Origin: Candidatus Caldarchaeum subterraneum
Lineage (GTDB): Archaea > Thermoproteota > Nitrososphaeria_A > Caldarchaeales > Caldarchaeaceae
DNA: 32,000 bases
NCBI GenBank assembly: GCA_000270325.1
Contig: BA000048.1
Location: 895,471-927,470 of the forward strand
Reading direction: 5' to 3'
Shown: in pieces, positions 2,592 through 28,186 of the stretch
How the letters are laid out: each line of letters starts with the position of its first letter
Numbering within the stretch: position 1 is the first letter of the stretch
Program-made: the position numbers and the translations under genes
The notes under the pieces: generated by a model
The model's database searches: none
Seen by the model: only the letters and a program-made list of their open reading frames with translations
Told to the model about the DNA's origin: nothing

Positions 2592-3341
2592 TTGTTAGCG
2601 GCTCTGGCATTGATAGGGACCAGCCCAGCAGTCGTGACGGAGTTCGTCGACTACATAGAGAAAAGGGAGAAGATCACGACCCTTAGGATCGTTGCGACAC
2701 GGGCTGATCAGGTTGTTAGCGGTGCGTTGCTTGCTGCAGAAGCGGTTAGATACAGGTATCCATGGATAAAAGCTTCTGTAGACACGCTTCCCCTAAGCGA
2801 CGTAACAAACGAGGATGAGAACTATGTATTCATGGAGGAGCTGGTGAATGTAATCAAGTCCATAAAATCCTCAGACGCGGAGAGGATCTATCTTTGCTTA
2901 GCTGGGGGGAGGAAAGAGATGGCTGTGGCCGCTGTTTTGGTGGCGCAGATCATGGGGCTCAACGCTGTTTACCACGTGTTGTCGCATAACATTAGGAAGG
3001 CCAACGTGGAGCTTGAGAGGATAAGGGATAAGATAAAAGAGCTGGCCTCCTCAAAAGACCCGGGAGAATACTACGCCAGAAACGCAGAGCTCTTCGAGAA
3101 AGTGATGTATCCTTCTCCAGATACATACAACGTGATAAAGATCCCAATACTGCCTTATCCTCGGGAAACATTGGATACGCTGAGGAACATTATGTCAAAC
3201 GAGGCCCCACAGGAGCGGGCGCTTAGCCGTGAATTGTTAGATAAACTAGTGGAAGCGGGAATTGTCACACGTTGCTGCGGCAAGATTCTGGTGACAGAGG
3301 AAGGGCTTAGGTTTTATCGACATGTGCTAGAGCATGTATAA
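2592..3341 (+). CDS. CARF-domain protein with C-terminal winged-helix (Crn1/Csx14-like; possible cyclic-oligoadenylate sensor, ring nuclease or regulator)
   Basis: The ORF has a TTG start. The N-terminal motif LIGTSPAVVTE and the later LAGGRKEMAVAAVL match the GTSP...GGRK.M signature of the Crn1/NE0113-type CARF Rossmann fold. The C-terminal LSRELLDKLVEAGIVTRCCGKILVTEEGLRFY looks like a wHTH. The gene starts 111 nt downstream of the array. Confidence 0.8.
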   Translation: MLAALALIGTSPAVVTEFVDYIEKREKITTLRIVATRADQVVSGALLAAEAVRYRYPWIKASVDTLPLSDVTNEDENYVFMEELVNVIKSIKSSDAERIYLCLAGGRKEMAVAAVLVAQIMGLNAVYHVLSHNIRKANVELERIRDKIKELASSKDPGEYYARNAELFEKVMYPSPDTYNVIKIPILPYPRETLDTLRNIMSNEAPQERALSRELLDKLVEAGIVTRCCGKILVTEEGLRFYRHVLEHV

Positions 3342-4267
3342 CCAAGAGTATTAACTGCCAGAATCTCTAAAACCTCTTAACCATTGCAACCGGGCTTGTC
3401 AGGTTCTAGCCACACTATTCACAGCAAACAGGCAACATTATACACCACGACTCCGCATACATGTTAACCACCGGCTGGAGACGCCGAGCAGCTTCCACCC
3501 ATTTCATTAAAGAACCTTCACGACAAAGAAATTGCCCTAAATTTTTGGAGAGGATTCAGCTTCTTGCCATTTTTGAGGAGCTTGCGGAGTGCTGGAGAAA
3601 ACTCAGGGGCTCACTGATTTCACTGTTATCCAAGAGGACTCGCCTCTTTTCATTATTACTGCTTTCGCGGTCAACGTCTGTATGCTGATTCAAGGTCTCC
3701 TCAAACTCGCTTTTGGAAGGCCTTCTACCCTTTTCCTCTCGGTTCTCTTATTGTCTTTGACAAATATTTTTTATCCATTGGGGTGGTTTCCACGTGTTGG
3801 GTGTCGCGGGGAGCTATCTTCTGCGGCGTCTCTCGCTGGAGCACGACGTCGTCGGCTTCGAGAACCAACGTAGGGAAAGCTTCAAATATAATCGGCGTAA
3901 AAAAGGGGGAAGCCATGAATACGGGAGACTCTACAACGATCACGGCCACGCTCATGGAGGTAGGTGATGGAGAACACGGGTTAGTCTCCGTTGATGAAGC
4001 AAGAAGATTAGGCTGTTAAAGACCATCCACAACCACGATCTTTCCCAAATGAGGCATCTCATCTCCGAAGTCTAAACAGTCCGGGGTTCAAGATATACCT
4101 CTAAACTCTCAACACCCCAAACCCCCTCTCCATACCTCTCCACCTATGGTCCCACAAACCTCAAACCAACCCCCATAATGGAGAGAAGCTACACAAAGCT
4201 CGCCGAAGCCGCAGCAATCCAACCCATGGGAGGAAAAATATTCGCGACACATATTCGATGAACTGTG

Positions 4268-6391
4268 TTAAGATATGTAGAATGGGTCTTTTCTCGGAGA
4301 CGTTGTGTAGCCGTTGGATGCGCCGTGCTTGTTTTTAACCTTTTGCAGCAGAGTTGAGACCGTTTTCACCGCGAAGACTGCTCCTTGCTCGGTTGGTTTA
4401 TAAGACCCCTCCTCTATGTTTAGAAGACCCCTTCTCACCAGCTCTCTGTAGATCGGCGCGTCCTGCGGCTTCATTGTCTTCTCGGTTATTTCATGGGCAA
4501 TAGTGTGCCGCAAATATCTTAGGGTCTGGAGGTTTTTGACCATGTCTCTTCCCACAATACCATAAAATGGGCCAAAGAAGGTTCCCCTAGCCGCTCCGTC
4601 AGGCGAAAACTCTATGCTAAGCTTCTCAACTATCTTATAACATAGGATAACCACTGTCTCTAAACAGGTTGCAGCCTCTCTCCTGCTTGTGGAGCTCTTC
4701 GCCTTTTCCAGCCACTCCTCAGCCTCTTTAAGAGATGAACTGGCTTCATCGAGCAGTGACACCTGTCTCCGCTGTGTCGCTTCTACTGAGCGTCTACCAT
4801 GCTCCAGCCTCTCCCTAGCCTCTTTAACCATTTCCTTCAACGCGTCAGCCAGCTTCTCCTCCTCGACCTTGGTAATGTTTTCGAAGCTGGATAAGAGCGC
4901 GTAAACAGCATAGCCTAGGAGGCTGCATAGCTCCATCTTGGAAAGATGCACGTGTGTCTGAGAAGCTGTCCTGTCCACCAGCTCCCATCTCTCTTCTGGA
5001 CGTGTCCCGTGCAGTGCGAGCGTCAAATAATCTAATGGATGTACATCGTAGCCATCCCCAGCCCTAGTGGCCCTCACACCGAGAGCGTTTAGAACCTGGT
5101 TGAAGACGCTTTCACCCTCGCTGGTCAACAGCTCCCTAACCCTGATAGTTTCTGCGGAGGCCCATATCCTCTGGAGGTCTCTTTCACCTATAATACTTAG
5201 AACAGTTCTCGCGGTATGGAAGCTTAGAAGCTCCGCCAACGGGTTCTCAAGCCTTGCGGAGACCACACGCTTTTCAATGGCTTCGCTTATTCTCTCTAAA
5301 GCCCTCTTCCTAACCTCATCCGGAAAGTTTGGGAAATCATGTACAGGTAACAAGGAAAACAGTTTTCTCGACTCGGGTAGGAATGGATACTTGGCAAGAG
5401 TAGTTAGATACACGGATCCCGCGGATCGTGGTAGACCGGCTACAGGATAAGGCCCTACACTGGGCTCCGGGCTTTTCGCCAAAGCCAGTATAATGACAAG
5501 AGTAGATACAGGCAGCATGGTGGCGTACAGCAGGCTTGTCCATGATGAGCCGGCTTGGAAAAAGTCAGACTCGAAAAACAGGTTGAGTAAGCCAAGGGGT
5601 ATGAGGACCTCCCTAAAGCCTGCAAATATGAGAAGAAGGCTTATCAAGAGACCCCATATGAAGCCATGCACCCTGCCCACGTCAGCGCCTTTCCTAACAG
5701 CCTCTATCCAGTAGCGGGGGCTGAAGCCAACTATAGCTGCTAACAGCAGAAGCAACATAACCTTGTCCTGCTGCGTCAGCGGTAGTTTAAGAAGCGTCGT
5801 CAAGTCACTTAAATAATCTAGAACAGTGTAGAGTATCACAAGCCCTATCGAGCGAGCCGGTGAAAATCCCAGCTTCAAGCCAGCCGCGACATGTCTCCTC
5901 CCAGCCAACCATCCAGCCAGCCACGGGATAAGATAGGATAGAAAAGCTAGGAAGAGATAGTTGAAAAACTCTGTCCTACCAGCCGGCCTCCAAACCGCCG
6001 CCGAGACATAACCTTCATCAAGCCCACAGCCATCCAATAAACCGCTCCACTCCGCTGGATTGATGTCACCATCCATTCGGGTCTCTATCGCTTCAGGACA
6101 CTTATCACTCGGCGCCGAACAACCACAGATAAGAGCTATAGCCCCACTTTCTAGGCTGCCGCCTCCCCCGAATACTCTAGACCATTCAATGTCGTCGAAT
6201 AGGTTTAACGACGTGGCCGGTTCCCGAGTATAGGGCTCTATAGAGGCAAAGACCATGAGACATATCCATAGACATGTCGCCACAGTAGCCGCTGTCCTCG
6301 AGTCATTCCTGTTGTCGTGCAGGAGGTCCATGTTCGATTTCGGCCCGTGGCTCCTCTTTACACAGCCATTTGCATCTATGTCACTATGCAT
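4268..6391 (-). CDS. Polytopic membrane protein fused to a PriL N-terminal-domain-like region and a HEPN-like C-terminal domain
   Basis: This is a 707-aa ORF. The N-terminal 330 aa hold about six hydrophobic helices and a Cys-rich loop. The middle region is colinear with the neighbouring PriL (LAKYPFLPES...ERISEAIEKRVVSARLENP...RWELVDRT...VHLSKMELC). The tail contains LRYLRHTIAHE, which fits the Rx4H motif. The start is uncertain: M1 is at 6391 and M21 at 6331. Confidence 0.75.
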   Translation of the reverse strand: MHSDIDANGCVKRSHGPKSNMDLLHDNRNDSRTAATVATCLWICLMVFASIEPYTREPATSLNLFDDIEWSRVFGGGGSLESGAIALICGCSAPSDKCPEAIETRMDGDINPAEWSGLLDGCGLDEGYVSAAVWRPAGRTEFFNYLFLAFLSYLIPWLAGWLAGRRHVAAGLKLGFSPARSIGLVILYTVLDYLSDLTTLLKLPLTQQDKVMLLLLLAAIVGFSPRYWIEAVRKGADVGRVHGFIWGLLISLLLIFAGFREVLIPLGLLNLFFESDFFQAGSSWTSLLYATMLPVSTLVIILALAKSPEPSVGPYPVAGLPRSAGSVYLTTLAKYPFLPESRKLFSLLPVHDFPNFPDEVRKRALERISEAIEKRVVSARLENPLAELLSFHTARTVLSIIGERDLQRIWASAETIRVRELLTSEGESVFNQVLNALGVRATRAGDGYDVHPLDYLTLALHGTRPEERWELVDRTASQTHVHLSKMELCSLLGYAVYALLSSFENITKVEEEKLADALKEMVKEARERLEHGRRSVEATQRRQVSLLDEASSSLKEAEEWLEKAKSSTSRREAATCLETVVILCYKIVEKLSIEFSPDGAARGTFFGPFYGIVGRDMVKNLQTLRYLRHTIAHEITEKTMKPQDAPIYRELVRRGLLNIEEGSYKPTEQGAVFAVKTVSTLLQKVKNKHGASNGYTTSPRKDPFYIS

Positions 6392-6845
6392 ATATATCCC
6401 CAGCCATGTTACAGGCTTCTCTCGACAAGCCGTATCAATCCGGAGACCTCGGCGGAAATAAACACTTTGTCGAACATGTTCTAAAACGAGTTAGGTAAAG
6501 CGAAAAACTTCTAAGATCCCTGCACAGACACAACCCACTATACACATCTTTTCAAACACATTGCAGAACATTTGTTTAGGTGGCTGAAGGGACTCTCTAT
6601 ACCTATGCAGCCAGAGTCTTAACATCGACGTTTAGGCTCAGCAGTCAATCATCTGCATGTACTATAAAAAATCAGAAAGACAGGCCTCGGGGCGAGAAAA
6701 TGGTCCGCGGATCCAATGTTGTCACCTAACCAGTTCCATGCCACAGGTGATTCCTGCTGTAAACACTTATGAACCTGCAGAAACTGTCTTAGAAGAGTAT
6801 GGCAAAACATCATCATGATGAAATCTAAGACGTAGTAGCTGTGGT

Positions 6846-6897
6846 AAAAAACTTGATGCCGACGGTCGAAGCCGTGTAGTCGCCGAGCCGTCTCGGC
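6846..6897 (-). terminator. Possible terminator of the 149-aa gene (hairpin plus T6 run)
   Basis: The hairpin GCCGAG-ccgt-CTCGGC at 6882-6897 abuts the stop codon. A run of six T on the minus strand (A6 on + at 6846-6851) lies about 46-51 nt downstream of the stop. Archaeal termination typically uses oligo-T tracts. Confidence 0.3.
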
Positions 6898-7346
6898 TAA
6901 CCCATGTTCGTCTTCTCTAGAGCATTTAGGAACGCCGAGGAATCGCCGCTCTTAAGCCGGAGCCTTCTCCTAGAGCCGTCAACCAGATCCAGCTGCAGCT
7001 CTGTTACCAGCTCATAGCTTAGAACAGACTGCCCAATTATGAGACCGGGCTCTAGATGCTCTGAGACGACGGTGACACTTTTTATCATGTTTCTGCCGAA
7101 TAGCTCCTTGCCAAGCGTTATCGAGCCGTCTGAATAGACTTTTACCGGCTTACGGCTCCAGCCATCTCGTATCCTGAAAAGCATGTAGAGCATCGCTGCG
7201 CCTATTGCTAGACCTGGTATAGATGAGGGGAGTGATACAAGCCCGAAAAAGAGGAAAAGTACTCCGAAAAAGCCGAGAAGCCATTCAATCACAAGCTGTG
7301 ACAGCGTCCTATAGCAACGCCCGGTGAAGAGCACGGTGGCGCTCAT
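6897..7346 (-). CDS. Small membrane protein (two N-terminal TM helices plus a soluble beta-rich domain)
   Basis: This is a 149-aa ORF. The hydrophobic segments are LVIEWLLGFFGVLFLFFGLV and IPGLAIGAAMLYMLF. A TATA-like box sits at the expected distance upstream. Confidence 0.6.
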   Translation of the reverse strand: MSATVLFTGRCYRTLSQLVIEWLLGFFGVLFLFFGLVSLPSSIPGLAIGAAMLYMLFRIRDGWSRKPVKVYSDGSITLGKELFGRNMIKSVTVVSEHLEPGLIIGQSVLSYELVTELQLDLVDGSRRRLRLKSGDSSAFLNALEKTNMG

Positions 7347-7371
7347 ACTGTTTTAAGGGGTTACAGGCTTT

Positions 7372-7379
7372 GATAATAA
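7372..7379 (-). promoter_or_regulatory. TATA-like box for the 149-aa gene
   Basis: TTATTATC on the minus strand lies 26-33 nt upstream of the ATG at 7346. This spacing is typical of leaderless archaeal transcripts. Confidence 0.4.
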
Positions 7380-7714
7380 GGAATTGTGAACTTGTTCCAG
7401 ATTTGTTGAAGAACCTTGAACATATTAGCTATCAATCGCCTCCCAAACCTAAGCAGTGTACATAGACAAAGGCTCCATGTGGACGCATCACTTGAAATTA
7501 ACAACAATACGGAAGATGATGCGAAAACAATCCAAAGCCCCGACCATTGAAGAAATAGGCAACGGCTTGCTGTGCTTTGATGATTCGGCCGGTTATCTTC
7601 TCTGGATGCTCTGATGTGGCTAGATAGCTGGCTAGAAGTCTTAGGTACTGTGCCGTGATAGAGGATGGCTTACAGGGCTTATATACATGAATAATGTCGC
7701 GTCAACGATCTCTT

Positions 7715-9250
7715 TTAAAAACATACCGCGGCACTTGATGCATCTCTGTCCATCATCCCGTACTGGAGCGGGTTTTTGATGTTCTTGGGACATAATTTCC
7801 CTTTCTCGATGCAGAGGTTGTGGGCCTGCATCGTTGGGCAGCTCGGCGGCCTATATATCGTCCCGCTGCCACGCTTACCCGCTATATGCTCTACTTGGTA
7901 CCTGGCTATCTTCTCGTCGAAGTCTGCTCTGGCTCTGAAGATGTCAACAACCTGCTCCACCGTGTATCCCTTGTTTGTTAGGAACGCTGCTAGAGTGAAG
8001 CACTCGAAGTGGCTGGCGTCGCTTATTCTATTGGCTATCGCGTGTATACATGGTGGCCACTCATTTTTATTGGATGGGGTGGTTATGGTTTTTGCCTTGG
8101 CTGCGAGGATTTGATTTATCTCGTTTAGCTGGTTCAATATTTTTTCCGGAGGTTTAAGGTTTTTTGGTAATGCGCTGAAGTCGCTGAAGATGTTGTATGC
8201 CGCCTCTCTCGCCAATCTGCAGACCTCGGACCTAGTTAAGTGGACATACCCGCGTGACAGAGTCCTGTTAACCAGCTTCCACCTGGTGTTAGAAGTGAGT
8301 CTCTCTGCGAGTCTCAGATAATCGGTGAAGTGTATCATATAGTGGTCTCCCACGTTTTTCACGGTGATGTTTAGACTCTTCAACACATGCTCGAAAACCT
8401 GTAGAATCTCTATGTTGAGCTGTTTCTCGACTCTAACAGCCTCTGCTAGAGCCCATCTTTTACGTAGCCAGTCATTTGATAGATGGTGGACAATCATCTT
8501 AGCCACGGGATATGAAGCGAATTCTATGAATGGTTTCTCGAGTTTAGCCGTAACCTCGTACCGCTCTATAGCCTCTATAACTCTCTCCCCCGCTCTAGAC
8601 AGCACTTCTTCCTCGACCTCGGTAATGTCCAGCGCCTTCGCAAATTGTTTAGCCTCTTGGAGAAAAGGATAGGTAGCCAACAGTCTAAGGTTTATTTTCG
8701 GAGTCATAGTCTCCGCTGTAGACTGTTTCTCCGCTATCAGAGAATCTTGGGATGATGCCGGCGCTGTATCCGATTTCCTGGCCTCGGTAACAGTTTCTGT
8801 CGTCTCATTCTCTTCAACGGCTCTTGCTTCAAAGTGTTCCTCCAAGGCTTTGTAAAGCCTTCTAAGACCCTCGTCGGACAACTCCTCGACCTGTGTCAGT
8901 ATATGGTTGATGACGCTGTCCTCGAACTCCTTTTCCTCTACATGCCCCGGGTCTGACCACTTGTATTGTGGGTAGCTCCGCTTCAGCTCCTCGAGCATCT
9001 CTTCATAGGTGAGACGTGGGTCGTATATGGCCGCCCAGTCGACCTCCAAAGGGTCAGCGTCTGGATTGTTCTTAACGAAGGTGTTGATAAGCGACTGGAC
9101 CACGATATAGTTCGGGCTCTTTCCATGGAGGCTGCTCATCTCCCGGCAAATCTTCGCAACAAGCTCCTTCAAGGCATCACTCTCCAGCTCTCCAACAGTA
9201 TCGGTACATCGCTGAGGCCGACCGTCTCCATCACACGCTCCCTGAACCAC
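7715..9250 (-). CDS. priL: DNA primase large subunit PriL with Fe-S C-terminal domain and an unusual ~150-190-aa N-terminal extension
   Basis: The C-terminal signature is WPPCIHAI...FLTNKGYTVEQVVDIF...ARYQVEHIAGKRG...YRPPSCPTMQAHNLCIEKGKLCPKNIKNPLQY, with four Cys for the 4Fe-4S cluster. The N-terminal helical domain starts at LATYPFLQEAK. The start is uncertain: 9250 overlaps the upstream gene by 82 nt, ATG 9139 avoids the overlap, and an internal MTPKINL start would give a canonical ~330-aa PriL. Confidence 0.85.
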   Translation of the reverse strand: MVQGACDGDGRPQRCTDTVGELESDALKELVAKICREMSSLHGKSPNYIVVQSLINTFVKNNPDADPLEVDWAAIYDPRLTYEEMLEELKRSYPQYKWSDPGHVEEKEFEDSVINHILTQVEELSDEGLRRLYKALEEHFEARAVEENETTETVTEARKSDTAPASSQDSLIAEKQSTAETMTPKINLRLLATYPFLQEAKQFAKALDITEVEEEVLSRAGERVIEAIERYEVTAKLEKPFIEFASYPVAKMIVHHLSNDWLRKRWALAEAVRVEKQLNIEILQVFEHVLKSLNITVKNVGDHYMIHFTDYLRLAERLTSNTRWKLVNRTLSRGYVHLTRSEVCRLAREAAYNIFSDFSALPKNLKPPEKILNQLNEINQILAAKAKTITTPSNKNEWPPCIHAIANRISDASHFECFTLAAFLTNKGYTVEQVVDIFRARADFDEKIARYQVEHIAGKRGSGTIYRPPSCPTMQAHNLCIEKGKLCPKNIKNPLQYGMMDRDASSAAVCF

Positions 9251-9819
9251 CTAGGCAGAAACCTGACCAGCCGCCTGTAGCGGTCGTCACACATCAATAC
9301 GATGGCCCTGTCCTCTGGTCCTCTGACAGCTCTCCCCGCCGCCTGTATAGCTGCGTTAAGCGCGGGAAGAATGGTTCCATGCATCACCGCCTTCTCCTCG
9401 CTTCCAAGTATTCTCGCAAGCTCCTGTGTTGCCAGCCTGGTCCTTGAGGTGGGAGGGGTGAATGGAATACCCACCAACACCACCAGGTTGGCACTGAGAT
9501 CAAGCCCCTCGGAGAGCCTCGAGTTGAAAACACTGACCAAGACCCCGCCTTTGGCCAGAAACTTTCTGGAGACGTCTTCTACCTCCTCCTGATTCATCCC
9601 AGGATGCTCAACTATCAAGCCGGGCTCCGCCTCCACAGTTCCAACCACTTCTTGGAGTATCTCATAGCTGGGGAGGAAAAACAGCGTCCTCCCTCCAGAA
9701 GCTATCTGCCTAGCTACTTGAAGCAGCCAAGTGACGTCGCTAAGCATCTTGTCATCTCGTTTATCATATTTAGTGCTTATCCCTGCGACGATACAGGCCC
9801 TAAAGACTATTTTCTTCAA
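9169..9819 (-). CDS. xpd: XPD/Rad3-family helicase, C-terminal half (helicase domain 2)
   Basis: The sequence carries helicase motifs V/VI of the XPD/DinG family: LFFLPSYEILQEV...VFNSRLSEGLDL...VVLVGIPF...AIQAAGRAVRGPEDRAIVLMCDDRY. It starts only at a TTG inside the overlap with the N-terminal half. Confidence 0.8.
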   Translation of the reverse strand: MKKIVFRACIVAGISTKYDKRDDKMLSDVTWLLQVARQIASGGRTLFFLPSYEILQEVVGTVEAEPGLIVEHPGMNQEEVEDVSRKFLAKGGVLVSVFNSRLSEGLDLSANLVVLVGIPFTPPTSRTRLATQELARILGSEEKAVMHGTILPALNAAIQAAGRAVRGPEDRAIVLMCDDRYRRLVRFLPRWFRERVMETVGLSDVPILLESWRVMP

Positions 9820-10969
9820 AAGGCCATCCAGCCCTCAGTACATGGAGCTTTCTACCTACCAGTGATTCTAGGAGAGCCGGGTCATAGGTCGCTGATATAG
9901 TGACTGTTGCAGCCCAGCCTCCATAGAATGCTTCAACACTATCAAGGCCCCCGATAGCCTCTAGGTATCTTTTTGAGCCGCGTCTTGACAACAGTAGTTT
10001 GTCGCCTTTTATCGAGAGCTTGAAGTCAGCTAGGGCAAGTATATATGGTGAAGGAGACTTCCCCTCTTTTAGCTGAGTCTCTTGAACCTCTCTCCCAGCT
10101 TCTATCAACTCGCTCGCCGTGGGTAAGAGGTCGTCGACCAGCGCGTCGTCGCCGAGCCTGACGCCACAATACCATGCCAAGGCCTCTTCTATCCTCTTAG
10201 CCAAGTCGTTGAACCCGTATCTCCTAGCCTCATCCACAGCCTTCTCCAGCGTCGAGAGGCTTACCTCATCCAAGGTAAGTGAAATAGATTGATTGAGAAT
10301 ATGATGCCCCTCATCCACGACCAGTATAACGTCACGTCGCCCACAGGCCCATCGGCTCAGCAACAGCTCCATGAACCTGAGCTGCCTATGAGTCGCCACT
10401 ACAGCATCTCTTCCTAAAATGTTCCAGGCCAGCAGCTCGTAGGGACATGAACTTGAAGCAATACCCAGCTCCTTCGCCTCGTGTATGGAATAGATGTTGA
10501 CGTCGGAGAAACTGGCAGTCGCTGGATAGTGCTCGCATTTTCCCGCGATCCTAAGGGCGTAGCAGGCATTGTTGAACCTCTTCTGGTCAAGCCCTGAACA
10601 CAGCGGATTTATGCATAGCATCCGTCTGCCGAAAATCGGCGAGGCATCGATCTCTCGAGCAACCTTAGAAACCTGGGAAGCTGTCCGAACCAGCCAGAGA
10701 ACCCTGAGACCATTCTCCTCCGCGAAGCTCTTCACGGCGCACCAGACGGCGGCGGTTTTACCAGCACCGGTCGGAGCCTCTACCACGACATCTCTACACC
10801 CCGTCGACAACCGTTCGTAGACAATGTTCGCCATATCTCCTTGAAACCTCCGTAGAGAAGAGTATGGAAAATGGCGGCGAATGTTATCCACAATCTCCGC
10901 ACCAGGCTCCAGCTCATGTACTATCATTTCCATCAACTCTGCATCTATGCTCCTTGATCCTGTCCGCAT
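9800..10969 (-). CDS. xpd: XPD/Rad3-family helicase, N-terminal half (Walker A, Fe-S cluster domain, DEGH box, arch)
   Basis: Motifs present are FPYSSLRRFQ, VEAPTGAGKT, a Cys cluster (LCINPLC...NAC...GKCEHY...SSCPYE) and VVDEGHHI. The ORF ends ...GWPFEENSL, directly abutting the frame of the C-terminal half. A likely true start is M13/M15 (10933 or 10927), which removes the overlap with the upstream ATPase. Confidence 0.8.
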   Translation of the reverse strand: MRTGSRSIDAELMEMIVHELEPGAEIVDNIRRHFPYSSLRRFQGDMANIVYERLSTGCRDVVVEAPTGAGKTAAVWCAVKSFAEENGLRVLWLVRTASQVSKVAREIDASPIFGRRMLCINPLCSGLDQKRFNNACYALRIAGKCEHYPATASFSDVNIYSIHEAKELGIASSSCPYELLAWNILGRDAVVATHRQLRFMELLLSRWACGRRDVILVVDEGHHILNQSISLTLDEVSLSTLEKAVDEARRYGFNDLAKRIEEALAWYCGVRLGDDALVDDLLPTASELIEAGREVQETQLKEGKSPSPYILALADFKLSIKGDKLLLSRRGSKRYLEAIGGLDSVEAFYGGWAATVTISATYDPALLESLVGRKLHVLRAGWPFEENSL

Positions 10970-12398
10970 CCAGCAGAGGAACGGTGAAGCCGCAGCTTAT
11001 GCATCTCAGGCTGCTACATGACCCGCCAGACGACACCTCCTCAACCAGGTGGGGCCCTATCCTGAAAAAGGCACGACTCTCCTCCCCACCGGTTCCGCCG
11101 GAATCGGCTTGGGACCGGATAGTCTCTATCCCTGTATGCTTTTCTTTGTCGACACTCTCTTCGACATCCTCTGGGGCTGTAGAATCGATGGACACGGTCT
11201 CCCGCCGCGTTTCTTCAGCGATGTCTCCAATTTCCTCCGGCTTGCTTCGCCCCGCCGGTGTATAGCGTCTTGGAGGTTTTCTGAAGTGGAATTCACCGTT
11301 GTAGATTATAAGCTTGTTCATGCTCTCGACTTTCTTTACCTTGACGAGATGCTCATACAGCCTGGGCGGTAGTGTGTTTGTGCCAAAGGATATGACAGCG
11401 CCGACGTCGCTTTCTAGGTGTAGGGGCAGCTGGAACGGGTCTGGAGCTACTATTATACACCCCACTCCGAAAGCCCTGCACTCGTTGACCATTCTCTCGC
11501 CAATTGATACGTCATTGTTTTTACCTCTCCTAACAATGTTCTGAGCCTCCTCTATGACCACTATTGTGTGGAAGCTTCTCGCTCCACCGTGTACAGACTC
11601 TCTATAAACATTCCATAGAGCCAGCGTTGCATACATGGTTTTGAGCTCGGTGAGCGGGATGTCTGAGAGGTCTATGACAACGTCGCCAGATGGGATGAAG
11701 CCGGTCGGCTTATGTAGTGTTAGAACCCATAGCCTCCTAAGCAGCGCTGCCTGTATCTCCGCCTCAGCCTTGGATGCGGGGACCTTGTCCTTTATCAGTT
11801 TGAGCAATGCCTCGGCGTTGTCCAGCCCCTTCTCATAGAACTGTTGGAGAACATTGAGCATCACATATGCCTGCGGCTCAGATAGGTTGAAAGCCTCTCT
11901 AAGAGCCTCTGCGAGAACAAGTGGAGTCAACCTGTCTCCGAAGACCTTGAAGACATCGAATCCACGTATCCTCGGAACCCCATTCAAATCATACTCCCCT
12001 TTCCAATCGATGACGACGACCCTGACACCTCTCCTCCTCAAGAAGTCCAGGGCTTTTCTGACGAGGCTTGTCTTCCCCGACCCCGTTCTACCCACCACCA
12101 GGACATGTTTGTTAAAGTCATCTAGGCTAAGCAGATTCAGGAACCGGCGACTCCTTCTCATGACAAGAAATGGCAGCGGCGCTAAAGCCGCTGTCATCAT
12201 TAGAAGAGGTATGTGGAAAAGGTATCCTTCGGTGCCTAGTCTCGGTAGAAAGGGTTGAGACGCTGCCATAAGGGTTATCAGCCCGGCAACCGCCAAGGCA
12301 GCCCTGTAGAAACTCAACTTAGTTAACCTCCCTGCACTATGTCGAGGGGTCGGCGGCGGCGGTGGGCGCCTGTGAGGATTAGATGTATCCCAATGCAT
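10914..12398 (-). CDS. Membrane-anchored FtsK/HerA/VirD4(VirB4)-superfamily P-loop ATPase
   Basis: The N-terminus has two hydrophobic helices (AALAVAGLITLMAAS and LFHIPLLMMTAALAPLPFLV). Walker A is VVGRTGSGKTS, followed by VVVIDWKGEY, and Walker B is TIVVIEEAQNI. The tail is acidic and disordered, ending in a Cys cluster (CSSLRCISC...HRC). Confidence 0.8.
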   Translation of the reverse strand: MHWDTSNPHRRPPPPPTPRHSAGRLTKLSFYRAALAVAGLITLMAASQPFLPRLGTEGYLFHIPLLMMTAALAPLPFLVMRRSRRFLNLLSLDDFNKHVLVVGRTGSGKTSLVRKALDFLRRRGVRVVVIDWKGEYDLNGVPRIRGFDVFKVFGDRLTPLVLAEALREAFNLSEPQAYVMLNVLQQFYEKGLDNAEALLKLIKDKVPASKAEAEIQAALLRRLWVLTLHKPTGFIPSGDVVIDLSDIPLTELKTMYATLALWNVYRESVHGGARSFHTIVVIEEAQNIVRRGKNNDVSIGERMVNECRAFGVGCIIVAPDPFQLPLHLESDVGAVISFGTNTLPPRLYEHLVKVKKVESMNKLIIYNGEFHFRKPPRRYTPAGRSKPEEIGDIAEETRRETVSIDSTAPEDVEESVDKEKHTGIETIRSQADSGGTGGEESRAFFRIGPHLVEEVSSGGSCSSLRCISCGFTVPLLDADRIKEHRCRVDGNDST

Positions 12399-12862: not shown

Positions 12863-13639
12863 CTAGACCAGGTCAGCTATCTTCAGCTGCTCAGTGATCT
12901 TTTTCACATCCTTAAGCCAGTAAATCCTCACAGGGTCATTATAGTTCTCCAGCTCCTTGTTCGTGTATACATATATCAACGGCGCCATCAACTGGTCCGC
13001 TATCTCGCTGAAAGCTATACCAGCCGGCCTAGTGCCCGATGTACAGTCAATTATAGGGACATACTCTCTACACAGCTCATACACCTTAGGCTCCATGATG
13101 TTCACCATCGTCTCTATGTCGTTCATCTGCTCCACCGATACTAGTTTCCAGTCAATGATAGCATATCTTCTATACCTCTGTATGTCAAAGGCCCAATCAC
13201 TATAAGCCTCCTTGGTAGTGGCGATTACAATCCTCTCCAACCTAAACCCCTGCGCCTCCAACATGTTAACAGCTGTAACCGGCTCCGGCTCATCTATATC
13301 CAGCCTAAGCTTCCTACCCAGCAGCCCGACATAGACATACTTTACATCTGCTCCCACCACATAGCAGAGCGGGGTTTTGCTCTTAAGCGAAGCTACGCCG
13401 CCACCATAGTTAATGTAGCACAAGTCCCTCAACCTATAAAGTCTATTCGTTAAAGTAGAGCCGAGGCTCCGTTTTCCACCGACGGTGTCCAATAAATCGC
13501 TATGCCTAGCGACACCTCCGCGCCGGGCTATGCTGAGCAGGAGCAGCTTATCCGGCTTATAAAGAGAAGCCAGTCGAGAATAATTCTGTGCATGGACCTT
13601 AAGCTCATCTTCCACACACGCCATAAGCCCCTCCACCAT
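12863..13639 (-). CDS. N-terminal wHTH plus C-terminal CARF-like Rossmann domain protein (Csa3-like with reversed domain order)
   Basis: The N-terminus LLLLSIARRGGVARHSDLLDTVGG...LTNRLYRLRDLCYI looks like a winged helix. The C-terminal half has RIVIATTKE (beta1) and VPIIDCTSGTRPAGIAFSEIA, which resembles the D.T.G.R/K motif of Csa3/DUF1887-type CARF domains. Confidence 0.55.
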   Translation of the reverse strand: MVEGLMACVEDELKVHAQNYSRLASLYKPDKLLLLSIARRGGVARHSDLLDTVGGKRSLGSTLTNRLYRLRDLCYINYGGGVASLKSKTPLCYVVGADVKYVYVGLLGRKLRLDIDEPEPVTAVNMLEAQGFRLERIVIATTKEAYSDWAFDIQRYRRYAIIDWKLVSVEQMNDIETMVNIMEPKVYELCREYVPIIDCTSGTRPAGIAFSEIADQLMAPLIYVYTNKELENYNDPVRIYWLKDVKKITEQLKIADLV

Positions 13640-15612: not shown

Positions 15613-16016
15613 CATTCAACATATCGAATGCATGGAGGGAAGCATTGAACATGTGGTGATAGTCCCAGAGACAACCCTGTTCAAAAATTGGGGAACACTC
15701 CTACATGCCGTGTCTCATGACGAAGCTCGAGCCACCAGCCTCTATACTTTCCTCTTCCAGAGGCTTAGAGACGCGGAGTTCCAGCACCTGCTTCTTTAAC
15801 CGAGCCATTCACCTATGAACTCCGCAGGCCCAGCAGGCGCTCCAAAATCGATTCCCTTCCCAGGGTTTACCAAGTGAACGGCTACTATATCATCCACTTG
15901 ACTGGTGGTATCTAGGCTGAGATGTAGTCGACGTATTTCGAGCTGAAGCCCATCAGGATCGATGTGGCCAAAACGTATAAGCCAGACGAAAATCACAGTC
16001 AAAATGCTCTAGGAGA

Positions 16017-25504: not shown

Positions 25505-27859
25505 CTATGAATGTAGCACATCATGTATGATGATGGTTGTTATGCCCTCTATTTTTTGGATTGTTGCGTTTGCTTTGAATTTGCTTCCTTTCCTGATTAG
25601 GTCTCTTGGGCCGTGGTAGGCTGCTGGGTCGAGCCGGGCTCTGAACTCCTCGTCTACCACGACTATCGCGAAGCCGGGGTAAACCTTCTCAATCCTGATT
25701 TCATGTATTTTATCGGGTTTCTTGGACGCTCTTATCACGGCCTTTGCGACGTATTTTTCCCCTGTTTTGACGGCCAGCCCATCTCTAACCAGCCTGTTCA
25801 TGGACATCCTGACCACGTCTGGGCTGTAGCTAAGCTGGGACAGGGCCTCCGCCATAGACAACCCCTTTACACCGGCCTGCAACAATTTATTGTATAATTC
25901 TCTCCTGCATCTCAACAGCTCTCCCGAGCTGATTTTCGACGCCTCTATGTAGACGGCTTCGTCATCCTCGACCGTGGATTCCTTTGTCGTTGCTACCTGA
26001 ATTGTCTCTCGTCTCCATGGCCACGGTTCTCCCGGCCTTGGTTCTGGGCCTCTCCTCTCAACCCTGATATCTTGTATCTTCTTCGATATGTTTTCGAGGA
26101 TTTTAGCCATCTTCCTAGCTCTTCTATATCCTTCTTTGAAGTAGTATTCGTCGACTGTTTTCTCTGCGATTAGTATTGTTACTTTCCCGGGTAGCTTCCT
26201 TCCCGTCCTACCTCTTCTCTGAATGTATCTTATCCCCGATATGGCTGGCTCATAGAAAATCACGTACCCACATTCAGGTATATCGAGCCCCTCCTCCCCA
26301 ATGCTGGTTGCTACGAGGATGTTGAAGACCCCTTCCCTGAATTCTTTGAGGAGCCGTATCTGCTCCTGCTGCGTCATCTTCGGCCCTGTCTTCCCCTCAC
26401 CCTTTCCAATAAACATCCTAGCCCTGTACCCGAGCTCTGTGAGCCTAGACACTATCACCTCCGCCGTGTTTCTTATGTTTGCGAAGACCATTATCCTGTC
26501 GTCCGGCTTCTCCGACAAATGTTGTGAGATTCTCTGTACCAGTGCCTCTATCTTTGGGTGGTCTGCTTGGCTTTTGGCGGCGAGTTGAATTATTTTTCTG
26601 AAGTCCTCGCTACCGGAGAGCATTCTATGGCTTCTCAGCTCAGAATGCATAACTTCTCTGAGGTATTCTCTTAGGCTGTGTATGTGCTGGCTCTCTATAA
26701 GCTCCTGTGCATGGTATAGGCTCAGTATCTCGCTTATCAAGGCCATGTAGTGCATGTTCTGGCCCTTAACACCCGAGTCTATCTCAGCCCTTATCCTAGC
26801 CATGGCTTGGACTAGGATAGTCCTGTTAACATGCTCTACAGGAACCCTGACGACACCGAACCTCTGCAGATGTCTAACCCTGTTCTCGATAGCCTCCCTG
26901 ATAGCCTTCCTAACCTCCTCATACTCATGTGGAATCTCTACACGTACCCAGTCAACCTTAACACCTGGAATATAGCTCGAAACCTCCTCATCCTCCTCAG
27001 TCCTCCAGACAATTTTCTCCACCCAGAGGTTCTTCACGACTTCGAGAACCTTCTCCTCCTCGCTCCCCGGGCTGGCTGTCAGGCCCAGAACCCTAGGCCA
27101 AGGGCATCTCCTAACATATTCTGATGCGAGACGTGTGTAGGCGTATCTGCTTCTGCTCCTGTGGCACTCGTCGAAGACGAGCAGAGCGAATTCTTCAAGC
27201 CTTATCCAGCCACGTCTGTAATCGTTGAAGGCTGTCTGAGGGGTTGAGAAGACAATTCTGACGGATGGAGAGCCCCAAGCCATTTTCCTAACGCTTTCGC
27301 TCACTTCTCCAGTTATGGCGATGCCCTCGTCCTCCGAGATGTTTAGGTGTTTGAGGAAGCTCTGCCTATGCTGTAGGACTAGGGGCTTCGTAGGAGCCAT
27401 AACAAGTATCCTGCATCCCGGATGCCTGTGGAGAAGCTCGGCGGCCACGAGCTCGGCTATCACTGTTTTCCCCAACGCTGTTGGCAGAACCACCAACGTA
27501 TTGCCTCTGAGAGCCTCCTCAACCATGCTCCTCTGATATTCTCTGTCCTCTATTGTATCTGGCTTAACCATCGGATGGCTGACAAACACATGCCTACCAA
27601 GAGGCTGCTCAACAACCCTCTTATCCTCTATCCTCTCCCTCTCCGTCTGCTTCGGCGCCGGTATGGTTGCTATCAGCCCCTCAGCAACCTTAACCGCGTA
27701 AATATGCTTACAATCTTTCCCCATCTTCTTAGCCCTGAAGGTATAGTCTGGGCATGTGCATGAGAATTTTTCTCCATCAAACGTTACCCTATACGTTTTT
27801 GTCGGGTCTTCTTGGCTCGGCACATCCCAGTGGATGGGCATCTGATAGGGAATGGCCAT
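25505..27859 (-). CDS. SWIM zinc-finger plus Hef/FANCM-like (COG1111) superfamily-2 helicase with C-terminal wHTH and beta domain
   Basis: The N-terminal SWIM signature is FSCTCPDYTFRAKKMGKDCKHIY (CxC...CxH). Helicase motifs are DREYQ, VLPTALGKT, FDECHRS, GLTASPG and IQRRGRTGR. I saw no ERCC4 nuclease motif. Confidence 0.9.
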   Translation of the reverse strand: MAIPYQMPIHWDVPSQEDPTKTYRVTFDGEKFSCTCPDYTFRAKKMGKDCKHIYAVKVAEGLIATIPAPKQTERERIEDKRVVEQPLGRHVFVSHPMVKPDTIEDREYQRSMVEEALRGNTLVVLPTALGKTVIAELVAAELLHRHPGCRILVMAPTKPLVLQHRQSFLKHLNISEDEGIAITGEVSESVRKMAWGSPSVRIVFSTPQTAFNDYRRGWIRLEEFALLVFDECHRSRSRYAYTRLASEYVRRCPWPRVLGLTASPGSEEEKVLEVVKNLWVEKIVWRTEEDEEVSSYIPGVKVDWVRVEIPHEYEEVRKAIREAIENRVRHLQRFGVVRVPVEHVNRTILVQAMARIRAEIDSGVKGQNMHYMALISEILSLYHAQELIESQHIHSLREYLREVMHSELRSHRMLSGSEDFRKIIQLAAKSQADHPKIEALVQRISQHLSEKPDDRIMVFANIRNTAEVIVSRLTELGYRARMFIGKGEGKTGPKMTQQEQIRLLKEFREGVFNILVATSIGEEGLDIPECGYVIFYEPAISGIRYIQRRGRTGRKLPGKVTILIAEKTVDEYYFKEGYRRARKMAKILENISKKIQDIRVERRGPEPRPGEPWPWRRETIQVATTKESTVEDDEAVYIEASKISSGELLRCRRELYNKLLQAGVKGLSMAEALSQLSYSPDVVRMSMNRLVRDGLAVKTGEKYVAKAVIRASKKPDKIHEIRIEKVYPGFAIVVVDEEFRARLDPAAYHGPRDLIRKGSKFKANATIQKIEGITTIIIHDVLHS

Positions 27860-27864
27860 AGGCT

Positions 27865-27871
27865 CTTAAAT
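27865..27871 (+). promoter_or_regulatory. TATA-like box for the hjc-like gene
   Basis: TTAAATA lies 25-31 nt upstream of the ATG at 27896, in the short divergent region shared with the helicase gene. Confidence 0.45.
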
Positions 27872-27895
27872 ATGTTGATGGCCGTTGTTGTTCTG

Positions 27896-28186
27896 ATGAG
27901 CTATAGGAGGGGGAGGAGGTTCGAGTACGAGGTTAGGGATTTCTTTGAGGATAGGGGGTGGCTGGTTATCAGGGCTGCCCGGAGCAAGCCTGTTGACCTA
28001 GTGTGCATAAAGGATGGGAGAGTGATGCTTGTCGAGTGCAAGTATGCAGGGGGCCGGCTGCTCAAGGAGGAGAGGAAGGCTCTTGAGAAGATAGGTAAGA
28101 GGTATGGCGTGGATGTAGTGGTGGCGCGGAGAAAGAAGAGAGGAGAGACAGAGCTTGAAACACTCCACCACTCCAAGGGCTTGTAG
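27896..28186 (+). CDS. hjc: Hjc-like Holliday-junction resolvase / archaeal endonuclease fold (short, 96 aa)
   Basis: The sequence is RRGRRFEYEVRDFFEDRGWLVIRAARSKPVDLVCIKDGRVMLVECKY...EERKALEKIGKRYGVDVVVA. It fits the E...S.PvDl.a...g....iEcK nuclease core of Hjc/Hje. The ORF-track start at 27812 overlaps the helicase gene and precedes the TATA box, so I prefer ATG 27896. Confidence 0.72.
   Translation: MSYRRGRRFEYEVRDFFEDRGWLVIRAARSKPVDLVCIKDGRVMLVECKYAGGRLLKEERKALEKIGKRYGVDVVVARRKKRGETELETLHHSKGL

What the first reader, a model, noticed from the sequence alone, without database searches (positions are those of the whole stretch)
4268..6391. Membrane protein fused to a PriL N-terminal-domain paralogue and a HEPN-like (Rx4H) tail
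- Seen, membrane part: residues ~40-330 contain about six hydrophobic helices and a Cys-rich loop (ICGCSAPSDKCPEAI...DGCGLDEG).
- Seen, PriL-like part: residues ~335-520 align colinearly, at roughly 30% identity by eye, with the helical N-terminal domain of the bona fide PriL 1.3 kb upstream. The 707-aa protein reads LAKYPFLPES / ALERISEAIEKRVVSARLENPLAELLSF / IWASAETIRVRELL / VFNQVLNALG / GDGYDVHPLDYLTLA / RWELVDRTASQTHVHLSKMELCSLLGYAVYALLSSF. PriL reads LATYPFLQEA / AGERVIEAIERYEVTAKLEKPFIEFASY / RWALAEAVRVEKQL / VFEHVLKSLN / GDHYMIHFTDYLRLA / RWKLVNRTLSRGYVHLTRSEVCRLAREAAYNIFSDF.
- Seen, tail: the PriL Fe-S domain is missing. In its place is a helical tail (SLKEAEEWLEKAKSS...LETVVILCYKIVEKL...LQTLRYLRHTIAHE) that fits the HEPN Rx4-6H nuclease motif.
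- Inference: this could be a membrane-tethered PriL mimic that docks or sequesters the primase catalytic subunit, coupled to a HEPN RNase-type effector.
- The gene lies 0.9 kb from a CARF gene and a CRISPR array. I know of no described family with this architecture.
Basis: partly seen in the sequence, partly recalled or inferred. Interest (0 to 1): 0.82.

Follow-up and report, generated by a model that had tools for sequence, protein, structure and literature searches.

The report
Membrane protein: primase-domain copy plus HEPN
A hot-spring archaeon (Candidatus Caldarchaeum subterraneum) encodes a very rare membrane protein that combines a duplicated copy of the N-terminal half of its DNA-primase large subunit with a probable HEPN RNA-cutting domain; this combination has not been described before and its function is unknown.

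Summary
ORF 4268..6391(-) is a real 707-aa gene. It is CSUB_C0935 of Ca. Caldarchaeum subterraneum, annotated as hypothetical (687 aa from Met21).

- **Membrane part:** about six TM helices, topology N-in/C-in by the positive-inside rule.
- **PriL-like part:** residues 327-521 are 38% identical (E=5e-32) to the PriL gene 1.3 kb upstream. They match PriL profiles over the N-terminal domain only, and the model superposes on solved PriL N-terminal domains.
- **Tail:** the Fe-S domain is replaced by a confidently modelled helical domain. Its 12 best PDB matches are all HEPN proteins, though with weak E-values. A conserved R-[HN]-T-[IV]-A-H motif sits at the end of helix 3, where HEPN active sites lie.

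An exhaustive search of 1.84 billion protein representatives found only one other protein with this architecture (37% identity).

- The lone orthologue has lost the signature of the PriL subdomain that binds the catalytic subunit.
- Its contig shows no CRISPR or CARF genes.
- The protein has no CARF domain.
- The Cys-rich loop is an unconserved insert.

My best reading is a membrane-anchored HEPN-type RNase, probably a conflict or stress effector, that uses a PriL-derived interaction module. This is a new variant of a known kind. Interest is moderate.

The parts
4268..6391 (-). Whole gene, 707 aa from the first ATG. It is CSUB_C0935 / BAJ50790.1 of Ca. Caldarchaeum subterraneum. GenBank starts it at Met21 (ATG at 6329-6331), giving 687 aa.
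   Evidence: identical or near-identical in L001, L047 and L048
6239..6391 (-). N-terminal cytoplasmic tail and TM helix 1 (residues 1-51)
   Evidence: Hydropathy peak at 33-51; AF2 helix 30-49; the orthologue has an equivalent TM1 at residues ~8-34
5981..6238 (-). Acidic, Cys-rich loop (residues 52-137), predicted to be extracytoplasmic. It is an insert that the orthologue lacks.
   Evidence: pLDDT <50
5477..5980 (-). Conserved core of five TM helices (residues 138-305). It has invariant blocks GLKLGFSPxRxIGL, REVLxP and LLYAT and is 40% identical to the orthologue. No known family matches.
4877..5413 (-). Paralogue of the PriL N-terminal domain (residues 327-505): a helical subdomain plus a small alpha/beta subdomain
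   Evidence: BLASTP E=5e-32 against the window's PriL; NCBIfam PriL E=7.7e-19; Foldseek hits 1zt2/5ofn with TM-score 0.72-0.73; pLDDT >90; translation checked
4694..4876 (-). Long stalk helix (residues ~506-566). Its first half is still covered by the PriL profile match, so it corresponds to the PriL linker between the N- and C-terminal domains.
   Evidence: AF2 helix 516-566; NF002588 match extends to residue 545
4313..4693 (-). HEPN-like domain (residues 567-693): helix 570-595, an insert, helix 615-632, a loop, helix 642-653, a beta-hairpin at 657-666, and helix 668-693
   Evidence: AF2 pLDDT ~90-98; the top 12 Foldseek PDB hits are all HEPN proteins; sub-threshold Pfam hits to DUF3644, DUF4145 and Cas_Csm6_HEPN
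4493..4510 (-). Putative catalytic Rx4H motif, R628-H-T-I-A-H633. It lies inside the most conserved block of the tail, LRY[LM]R[HN]T[IV]AHEITEKT.
   Evidence: R628 is at the end of model helix 615-632 and H633 is in the following loop, which is the HEPN position described in PMC3710099.
4268..4312 (-). Disordered C-terminal tail and stop codon. It ends in YIS, which is conserved in both family members.
7715..9250 (-). Canonical PriL (CSUB_C0937) with the Fe-S C-terminal domain and a lineage-specific N-terminal extension. It is the closest PriL to both paralogues and the likely donor lineage of the duplicated domain.
   Evidence: PF04104 E=2.3e-24; NF002588 E=1.8e-61; NJ tree and distances; extension conserved in 9 relatives

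Best explanation
CSUB_C0935 is a genuine, lineage-restricted integral membrane protein of Caldarchaeales. Six TM helices (N-in/C-in) anchor a cytoplasmic module. That module arose by duplication of the lineage's own PriL N-terminal domain together with its linker helix. The primer-binding Fe-S C-terminal domain was then replaced by a HEPN-type four-helix domain carrying a canonical R-[HN]-x3-H motif.

I propose that it works as a membrane-anchored, metal-independent HEPN ribonuclease of a conflict or stress-response type, similar to abortive-infection or toxin-like effectors.
- The HEPN domains of two protomers must pair to form the active site.
- The conserved TM domain and/or the PriL-derived helical domain act as the regulatory or partner-binding module that controls this pairing.
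- Activation leads to RNA cleavage at the inner face of the membrane and to growth arrest.

Shown here: the gene is real and conserved; the TM segments; PriL N-terminal-domain homology; absence of the Fe-S domain; a HEPN-like fold with the motif at the canonical position; extreme rarity.

Inferred: RNase activity, dimer-dependent activation, the trigger, and the biological role.
For: - **Real gene:** the ORF is intact in four independent assemblies.
- **Conserved along its length:** an orthologue at 37% identity (E=9e-103) is colinear from about residue 115 to near the C-terminus. Identity is 40% in the TM core, 36% in the PriL-like domain, 38% in the HEPN core and 43% in the C-terminal part.
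- **PriL N-terminal-domain homology:**
- **Origin:** in an NJ tree the two paralogues are monophyletic and group with Caldarchaeum-type PriLs.
- **HEPN fold:** the tail models with pLDDT above 90 in the full-length model and mean 82 alone. The 12 best PDB matches of the tail-only model are all HEPN proteins: HepT (6m6w, 6m6u, 5yep, 7bxo, 7ae6), AF_0298 (2hsb) and ST0689 (1wol). Their probability is 0.75-1.0 and target-normalised TM-score 0.45-0.66.
[quoted passage not shown] A polar residue (H or N) follows the R, and there is an insert between helices 2 and 3. These are the HEPN hallmarks in PMC3710099.
- **Motif conservation:** the motif lies in the longest invariant block of the tail.
- **Independent weak hits:** the two orthologues separately give their best sub-threshold Pfam hits, on the motif region, to three different HEPN families: DUF3644, DUF4145 and Cas_Csm6_HEPN (PMC3710099).
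- **Precedent:** membrane-associated HEPN proteins have been predicted in bacteria (PMC3710099).
- **Distribution:** two 50%-identity clusters among 1.84 billion. The gene lies next to a CRISPR array and two CARF genes. This pattern fits an accessory or conflict gene rather than a core gene.
Against: - No HEPN match is statistically significant. Foldseek E-values are 0.1-0.2, Pfam E-values are 0.02-0.08, and a PDB sequence-profile search found nothing.
- Four-helix bundles are easily matched by chance.
- The tail alignment has only two sequences, so the AF2 confidence may be optimistic.
- The Ex3[KR] acidic motif of helix 2 is not present in its exact form. Only an invariant E589-K590 is seen.
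- No partner gene such as an MNT antitoxin or an immunity gene is conserved next to it.
- With only two family members there are no statistics on genomic context.
- Nothing shows that the protein is expressed or active.
Confidence: 0.45

Rival explanations
1. Primase-directed effector. The PriL-like domain binds the catalytic subunit PriS, or a foreign PriS-like primase, as PriL does. This tethers it to the membrane and places the HEPN RNase where the primer-holding Fe-S domain normally sits. Priming is blocked, or nascent RNA primers are cut.
For: - The PriL N-terminal domain alone is sufficient for a stable complex with PriS (PriS-PriL(1-210) crystal structure, PMC11686378).
- The query keeps 32 of 44 conserved PriL positions, within the canonical range of 34.7 +/- 3.6. 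These include 7 of 9 in the small subdomain (DYL, W-LV-R).
- The PriL linker helix is retained, and the HEPN domain replaces the C-terminal domain at its end.
- The gene lies 1.3 kb from priL.
Against: - The only orthologue has lost all 9 conserved positions of the small alpha/beta subdomain. In human primase this subdomain contacts the catalytic subunit (PMC5333051).
- It is also the least conserved part of the domain between the two members.
- No PriS gene is in the window.
Confidence: 0.15
2. Non-catalytic membrane scaffold. The protein tethers replication or repair factors, or nucleic acid, to the membrane. The HEPN-like domain acts as a binding or dimerisation module rather than a nuclease.
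For: - Many HEPN domains are non-catalytic binders (PMC3710099).
- The helical subdomain of the PriL-like domain and its LAKYPFLPE motif are the best-conserved PriL features in both members. In eukaryotes this subdomain is a protein-docking platform (PMC5333051).
- The neighbourhood is rich in DNA-metabolism genes: XPD-like helicase, PriL, and HerA-like ATPases.
Against: - Non-catalytic HEPN domains typically lose the Rx4-6H motif (PMC3710099). Here R, the polar residue that follows it, and H are all invariant and lie in the most conserved block.
- Such extreme rarity is unusual for a replication accessory factor.
Confidence: 0.15
3. CRISPR type III ancillary effector, controlled through cyclic oligoadenylate signalling by way of the neighbouring CARF proteins.
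For: - A CRISPR array (1498-2480) and a Csx14/Crn1-like CARF gene (2592..3341) lie within 0.9-1.8 kb. A second CARF-like gene is at 12863..13639.
- This arrangement is kept in strain L047.
- One sub-threshold hit of the orthologue is to Cas_Csm6_HEPN.
Against: - The protein has no CARF or SAVED sensor domain and no PADLOC match.
- The CARF gene is convergent and 926 bp away, so the two are not in an operon.
- The orthologue's contig carries a transposase fragment and a TPR-like gene instead.
- L047 is the same species (99.4% identical), so it gives no independent support.
Confidence: 0.07
4. Annotation or assembly artefact: a chimeric ORF or a decaying pseudogene.
For: - The neighbouring XPD-like gene is split in the window.
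- The GenBank annotation calls the protein hypothetical.
Against: - The same uninterrupted ORF appears in four assemblies.
- A 37%-identical orthologue has the same domain order and conserved motifs in all three modules.
- The AF2 model of the soluble part has high confidence.
Confidence: 0.02

Closest known systems
PriL, large (regulatory) subunit of archaeo-eukaryotic primase (PF04104; NCBIfam NF002588; PDB 1ZT2, 5OF3, 9F26, 2DLA)
   Same: Residues 327-~545 are homologous in sequence and fold to the PriL N-terminal domain plus linker helix. Most invariant PriL positions in the helical subdomain are retained (YPF, R363, R367, E387, S390, E414, R417).
   Different: - It has no Fe-S C-terminal domain.
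- It lacks the lineage-specific N-terminal extension of Caldarchaeum PriL.
- It is fused to a six-TM domain and a HEPN-like domain.
- The WKLVNR signature is degenerate in the query (WELVDR) and lost in the orthologue.
PriX of Sulfolobales (third primase subunit)
   Same: It is the other known case of a lineage-specific paralogue derived from part of PriL.
   Different: PriX derives from the PriL C-terminal domain, is soluble, and is an essential primase subunit (PMC5700102). The present protein derives from the N-terminal domain and is a membrane protein.
HEPN superfamily RNases, for example HepT of HepT-MntA toxin-antitoxin pairs (PDB 5YEP, 6M6W, 7AE6), Csm6/Csx1, PrrC/RloC
   Same: - Four-helix up-down bundle with an insert between helices 2 and 3.
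- R-[N/H]-x3-H at the end of helix 3.
- These are the best structural matches.
   Different: - No significant sequence or profile match.
- No MNT antitoxin, CARF or ABC-ATPase partner domain.
- An extra beta-hairpin follows the motif.
- It is attached to a PriL-derived domain and a membrane anchor.
Membrane-associated HEPN proteins predicted in bacteria (DUF4145 + TM and others) and eukaryotic Ire1 and C6orf70 (Anantharaman et al. 2013, PMC3710099)
   Same: The logic is the same: TM segment(s) plus a cytoplasmic HEPN domain, proposed to couple a membrane or surface signal to RNA cleavage. The orthologue gives a sub-threshold DUF4145 hit.
   Different: - Those proteins have one or two TM helices and different adaptor domains (a kinase in Ire1).
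- This protein has a conserved six-TM domain and a replication-protein-derived adaptor.
- It is archaeal.

Membership tests
PriL (primase large subunit) | Sequence and fold of the N-terminal domain (helical subdomain plus small alpha/beta subdomain) | tested here: met
   BLASTP E=5e-32 against the window's PriL; NF002588 E=7.7e-19 over model positions 5-224 of 360; Foldseek hits 1zt2/5ofn/9f26/2dla
PriL (primase large subunit) | C-terminal [4Fe-4S] domain with four conserved cysteines | tested here: not met
   - PF04104 does not match the protein, though it matches the neighbouring PriL.
- PriL profile matches stop at about residue 545.
- The tail has only two Cys residues (C576, C584) and models as a HEPN-like bundle.
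PriL (primase large subunit) | Conserved signature of the small subdomain that contacts the catalytic subunit (DYL ... WKLVNR) | tested here: inconclusive
   The query retains 7 of 9 positions and the orthologue P0002 retains 0 of 9. The role of this subdomain is taken from human primase (PMC5333051).
PriL (primase large subunit) | Forms a complex with PriS and supports primer synthesis | not testable with these tools
   No multimer prediction or biochemistry was available, and PriS is not in the window.
HEPN superfamily | [quoted passage not shown] | tested here: met
   - AF2 helices 516-566, 570-595, insert 596-614, 615-632, 642-653 and 668-693 with pLDDT ~90+.
- The top 12 Foldseek PDB hits are all HEPN proteins, with probability 0.75-1.0.
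- This rests on a predicted model built from a two-sequence alignment, and the E-values are 0.1-0.2.
HEPN superfamily | Rx4-6H motif at the end of helix 3 or start of the following loop, with a polar residue after R | tested here: met
   The motif is R628-H-TIA-H633 in the query and R-N-TVA-H in the orthologue. The criterion is from PMC3710099.
HEPN superfamily | Significant profile match to a curated HEPN family | tested here: not met
   Only sub-threshold hits were found: DUF3644 E=0.024-0.16, DUF4145 E=0.08, Cas_Csm6_HEPN E=0.08. A PDB sequence-profile search found no HEPN protein.
HEPN superfamily | Metal-independent RNase activity that depends on the R and H residues | not testable with these tools
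   This needs biochemistry.
CRISPR type III ancillary effectors (CARF/SAVED-coupled) | A cOA-sensing CARF or SAVED domain in the protein | tested here: not met
   No CARF or SAVED hit in Pfam, NCBIfam or PADLOC, although the neighbouring genes hit strongly.
CRISPR type III ancillary effectors (CARF/SAVED-coupled) | Conserved genomic association with cas or CARF genes across lineages | tested here: inconclusive
   The association is seen only in C. subterraneum strains (window; L047 at 99.4% identity). The orthologue's contig (3,980 bp) has none, but it is short.
HepT-MntA type toxin-antitoxin modules | Small standalone HEPN toxin with an adjacent MNT nucleotidyltransferase antitoxin | tested here: not met
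   The protein is a 707-aa multidomain membrane protein. Its neighbours are a 149-aa TM protein and a CARF gene, and there is no MNT gene.

The most novel reading that the evidence does not exclude
The protein is a primase mimic used as a weapon or a switch. The PriL-derived domain docks onto a PriS-type primase, either the host's or that of an invading plasmid or virus (many archaeal mobile elements bring their own archaeo-eukaryotic primases). Because a HEPN RNase has replaced the primer-holding Fe-S domain at the end of the same linker helix, the RNase is delivered to the nascent RNA primer, or is switched on by the encounter. DNA replication is shut down at the membrane. This would be the first immune or regulatory effector built from a core replisome subunit and aimed at priming.
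Probability: 0.12. Interest if true: 0.85.

Novelty: new variant of a known kind. Interest (0 to 1): 0.55.

Why it matters
PriL is one of the most stable single-copy replisome genes in archaea and eukaryotes. Until now, the only known partial paralogue was PriX, which derives from the C-terminal domain.

Here the N-terminal domain has been duplicated, cut off from its Fe-S domain, and joined to a probable RNase and a conserved membrane domain. This shows that core replication modules can be recruited into accessory, possibly defensive, proteins.

If the PriL-derived domain still binds a primase, the protein would be a natural tool for interfering with priming, and a new kind of sensor or effector. 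If it does not, it is an example of a replication-protein fold being reused as a generic adaptor.

The case also adds an archaeal, multi-pass-membrane architecture to the HEPN superfamily. Finally, it gives a testable function to a gene that has been annotated as hypothetical since the 2011 genome.

Tried and rejected
- **Word-index homologue searches.** The full-length search found only the query itself. Profile searches with the tail and with the TM domain returned nothing, not even the query. I treat these as uninformative rather than negative.
- **Collection scans.**
  - The GTDB genome scan returned 43 loci, all canonical PriLs matching only residues ~303-555.
  - Two metagenome scans and one viral scan found no family member.
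  - tblastn against plasmid and phage collections found no match.
- **Family libraries.**
  - PADLOC and PHROGs gave no match.
  - Rfam and tRNA scans of the window found nothing.
  - BFVD fold search was uninformative.
  - A PDB sequence-profile search with the tail gave only spurious coiled-coil matches.
- **HEPN profile comparison.** I tried to harvest HEPN genes from the 45 fetched archaeal loci for a local profile-profile comparison. No credible candidate was found, so no hhalign test was done.
- **Selection test.** dN/dS between the window and L047 rests on only 5 differences (3 synonymous, 2 non-synonymous), which is too few to interpret.
- **Self-targeting spacers.** None were found.
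- **Ideas considered and dropped.**
  - A complete wHTH after the motif: only a helix-hairpin-helix is present, and the MarR-type match is weak (rank 33).
  - A C-terminal HbYX proteasome-docking motif: the Tyr is at position -3, not -2.
  - A Cys-rich loop acting as a conserved metal or redox site: the loop is absent from the orthologue.
- **Literature.** Searches for the locus tags and for the sample accession found nothing.
Full report
**1. What is there**

The window comes from Candidatus Caldarchaeum subterraneum (Nitrososphaerota, Caldarchaeales). Exact-sequence look-ups place the target, the PriL, the NurA and the CARF proteins in that 1.68-Mb genome.
- The finding corresponds to CSUB_C0935 / BAJ50790.1 / UniProt E6N6S5. 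It is annotated as a hypothetical protein of 687 aa starting at Met21 of the 707-aa ORF.
- The ORF 4268..6391(-) is intact in the GenBank genome, in Logan contig L001 (100% identical to window 3647-7934), and in ENA and Logan contigs L047 and L048 (5 nt and 2 aa differences).
- No paper in the library mentions the locus tag.

**2. Checking the three parts**

*Membrane part*
- Hydropathy gives six TM segments: 33-51, 142-164, ~181-201, 211-229, 248-266 and 287-305. These coincide with helices in the AF2 model.
- The K+R distribution favours N-in/C-in, which places the soluble C-terminal 400 residues in the cytoplasm.
- This region has no Pfam match and models with only moderate confidence (pLDDT 45-75).

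*PriL-like part*
- BLASTP against the PriL 1.3 kb upstream gives 38% identity over 197 aa, E=5e-32.
- Five NCBIfam PriL models match. The best, NF002588, has E=7.7e-19 and covers only model positions 5-224 of 360, that is the N-terminal domain plus linker.
- The AF2 model has pLDDT above 90 here. Its best PDB matches are PriL N-terminal domains from S. solfataricus, P. abyssi and P. horikoshii, with E down to 1e-5 and TM-score up to 0.73.

*Tail*
- There is no Fe-S domain. PF04104 does not hit this protein, though it hits the neighbouring PriL.
- Instead there is a 50-residue stalk helix, whose first half is still inside the PriL profile match. A helical domain follows, modelled with pLDDT ~90-98 in the full-length model and mean 82 for the tail-only model.

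**3. Is the tail HEPN?**

The criteria come from Anantharaman et al. 2013 (PMC3710099):
- a four-helix up-down bundle;
- a frequent insert between helices 2 and 3;
- a polar residue (N, D or H) after the R.

The model matches these.
- It has helix 570-595, an insert at 596-614, and helix 615-632.
- R628 is at the end of that helix and H633 is in the loop. The residue after R is H in the query and N in the orthologue.
- The motif lies in the longest invariant block of the tail, LRY[LM]R[HN]T[IV]AHEITEKT.

A Foldseek search of the tail-only model returns HEPN proteins as all of its top 12 PDB hits. These are HepT toxins (6m6w, 6m6u, 5yep, 7bxo, 7ae6), AF_0298 (2hsb) and ST0689 (1wol), with probability 0.75-1.0 and TM-score up to 0.66 normalised to the target. 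The E-values, however, are only 0.1-0.2.

Sequence profiles give only sub-threshold hits on the motif region.
- The query hits DUF3644, which is a HEPN family according to PMC3710099.
- The orthologue independently hits DUF4145 and Cas_Csm6_HEPN.

I conclude that HEPN is likely on the basis of fold, motif and topology. It is not established statistically, and enzymatic activity is untested.

**4. How widespread is it?**

An exhaustive phmmer search of 1.84 billion cluster representatives found 123 hits.
- Apart from the query itself, only one shares the architecture: P0002, from a JGI metagenome contig, with E=9e-103, 37% identity, covering query residues 115-687.
- The other 121 hits are canonical PriLs, nearly all matching only residues ~310-550.

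In P0002 the true ORF is 618 aa. It begins with TM1 and then goes almost directly to TM2, so the Cys-rich loop of the query is an unconserved insert.

Identity by module is 40% for the TM core, 36% for the PriL-like domain, 25% for the stalk, 38% for the HEPN core and 43% for the C-terminal part. Both proteins end in YIS.

Scans of one genome per GTDB species, of JGI metagenomes, IMG/VR, plasmids and phages found no further members. The family is real, conserved in all three modules, and extremely rare.

**5. Origin**

In an NJ tree of about 100 PriL N-terminal domains, the two paralogues are sisters. They sit next to the window's own PriL and its closest relatives (P0003, P0004, P0005, P0007). 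Both are closest in distance to the window's PriL. The tree has no bootstrap support, so this is suggestive only.

Those PriLs carry a conserved ~165-aa N-terminal extension, which the paralogue lacks.

The most economical history has three steps:
1. Duplication of the N-terminal domain plus linker within Caldarchaeales.
2. Replacement of the Fe-S domain by a HEPN domain.
3. Fusion to a TM domain, before the two carriers diverged.

**6. What the PriL-derived domain might still do**

The PriL N-terminal domain suffices to bind PriS (PriS-PriL(1-210) structure; PMC11686378). In human primase it is the small alpha/beta subdomain that contacts the catalytic subunit (PMC5333051).

Of 44 positions conserved in at least 60% of canonical PriLs, the query keeps 32 and P0002 keeps 28. 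Canonical PriLs keep 34.7 +/- 3.6, with a minimum of 27.

The losses are not evenly spread.
- The helical subdomain signature is kept in both proteins: YPF, R363, R367, A371, E387, S390, A394, E414, R417.
- The small-subdomain signature (D-Y-L and W-K-L-V-N-R) is kept at 7 of 9 positions in the query and 0 of 9 in P0002.

A conserved PriS-docking function for the family is therefore doubtful, though it remains possible for the C. subterraneum protein. The conserved helical subdomain may bind something else.

**7. Context**

On the minus strand the gene order is:
- CARF-like (12863..13639);
- HerA/FtsK-like ATPase;
- XPD/DinG-like helicase;
- PriL;
- a 149-aa TM protein;
- the target.

The target is followed by a convergent Csx14/Crn1-like CARF gene and then a 15-repeat CRISPR array.

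Intergenic gaps of 368 and 505 bp separate PriL, the 149-aa gene and the target. A tight operon is therefore unlikely.

The same order is seen in L047, but that contig is the same species at 99.4% identity.
- In a more distant relative (L046), XPD-PriL synteny is kept, but neither the 149-aa gene nor the target follows within 1.3 kb.
- The orthologue's 4-kb contig has a transposase fragment upstream and a TPR-like gene downstream.

The protein has no CARF or SAVED domain and no PADLOC hit. The CRISPR/CARF link is therefore unproven adjacency.

**8. Most likely mechanism**

I favour a membrane-anchored HEPN-type RNase of the conflict or stress class (confidence 0.45).
- The conserved TM domain and the PriL-derived helical domain would control pairing of HEPN domains.
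- Activation would cause RNA cleavage at the membrane and growth arrest.

This matches three observations. The catalytic motif is invariant, whereas non-catalytic HEPN domains usually lose it (PMC3710099). TM-HEPN proteins have been predicted before, and Ire1 is a precedent (PMC3710099). The distribution is patchy.

Rivals:

| Rival | Confidence |
|---|---|
| Primase-directed effector or sequestrator | 0.15 |
| Non-catalytic scaffold | 0.15 |
| cOA-linked CRISPR ancillary effector | 0.07 |
| Artefact | 0.02 |

**9. Novelty and score**

The protein fits no curated family.
- It is not a PriL, because it has no Fe-S domain.
- It is not a HepT-type toxin, because it has no MNT partner and is a multidomain membrane protein.
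- It is not a CARF effector.

It works most like the membrane-associated HEPN proteins predicted in bacteria. The difference is an adaptor derived from a core replisome subunit, which as far as I could find is unprecedented. PriL is reported as essentially single-copy (PMC3914693, PMC12680538), and PriX derives from the C-terminal domain (PMC5700102).

I rate it a new variant of a known kind, with interest 0.55. The architecture is curious and testable. However, the family has only two members, there is no functional evidence, and the HEPN assignment rests on a predicted fold.

Noticed in passing
window 7715-9250 (-): The PriL ORF carries a ~165-aa N-terminal extension (residues ~27-165 of the 511-aa ORF). 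The extension is conserved in nine other PriL representatives (E 1e-17 to 1e-28) and has no Pfam match. GenBank annotates this PriL as only 330 aa (BAJ50792.1), starting after the extension, whereas an ENA gene call gives 485 aa.
   Followed up: partly
window 9169-10969 (-): The XPD/DinG-like helicase is split into two overlapping ORFs (9800..10969 and 9169..9819). It is a single 585-aa ORF in the 99.4%-identical contig L047, and a single ORF directly upstream of PriL in L046. This is likely a frameshift or sequencing error in the reference. XPD-PriL synteny appears to be conserved in this lineage.
   Followed up: partly
window 16000-21000: G+C content jumps to ~0.60 across the Rad50-Mre11-HerA-NurA operon, against 0.42-0.55 in the rest of the window. 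Possible causes are horizontal acquisition or a composite assembly.
   Followed up: no
window 3342-4267: A 926-bp stretch between the convergent CARF gene and the target has no convincing ORF and no Rfam match.
   Followed up: no
window 4268-4279 (-); L002 2449-2457: The extreme C-terminus of both family members ends in ...YIS after an otherwise unconserved, disordered tail. This may be a short docking motif.
   Followed up: no
window 10914-12398 (-) and 12863-13639 (-): A HerA/FtsK/TrwB-like P-loop ATPase with an N-terminal hydrophobic region and a Cys-rich C-terminus lies next to a weakly CARF-like 258-aa protein, upstream of XPD-PriL. Together with the Csx14-like CARF gene and the CRISPR array, this looks like a defence-island-like neighbourhood, but no cas effector genes are in the window.
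   Followed up: partly
window 25505-27859 (-): A Hef/FANCM-like helicase has an N-terminal SWIM zinc finger. It overlaps the start of a divergently oriented Hjc resolvase gene (27812..28186).
   Followed up: no
window 22544-23381 (+): Two adjacent small ORFs (163 and 111 aa) have a basic, transposase-like composition in a low-GC stretch. Neither has a Pfam or PHROG match.
   Followed up: no
window 6897-7346 (-): A 149-aa protein with two predicted TM helices lies between PriL and the target. It is conserved in C. subterraneum strains (called as 145 aa), has no homologue next to the orthologue P0002, and has no family match.
   Followed up: partly
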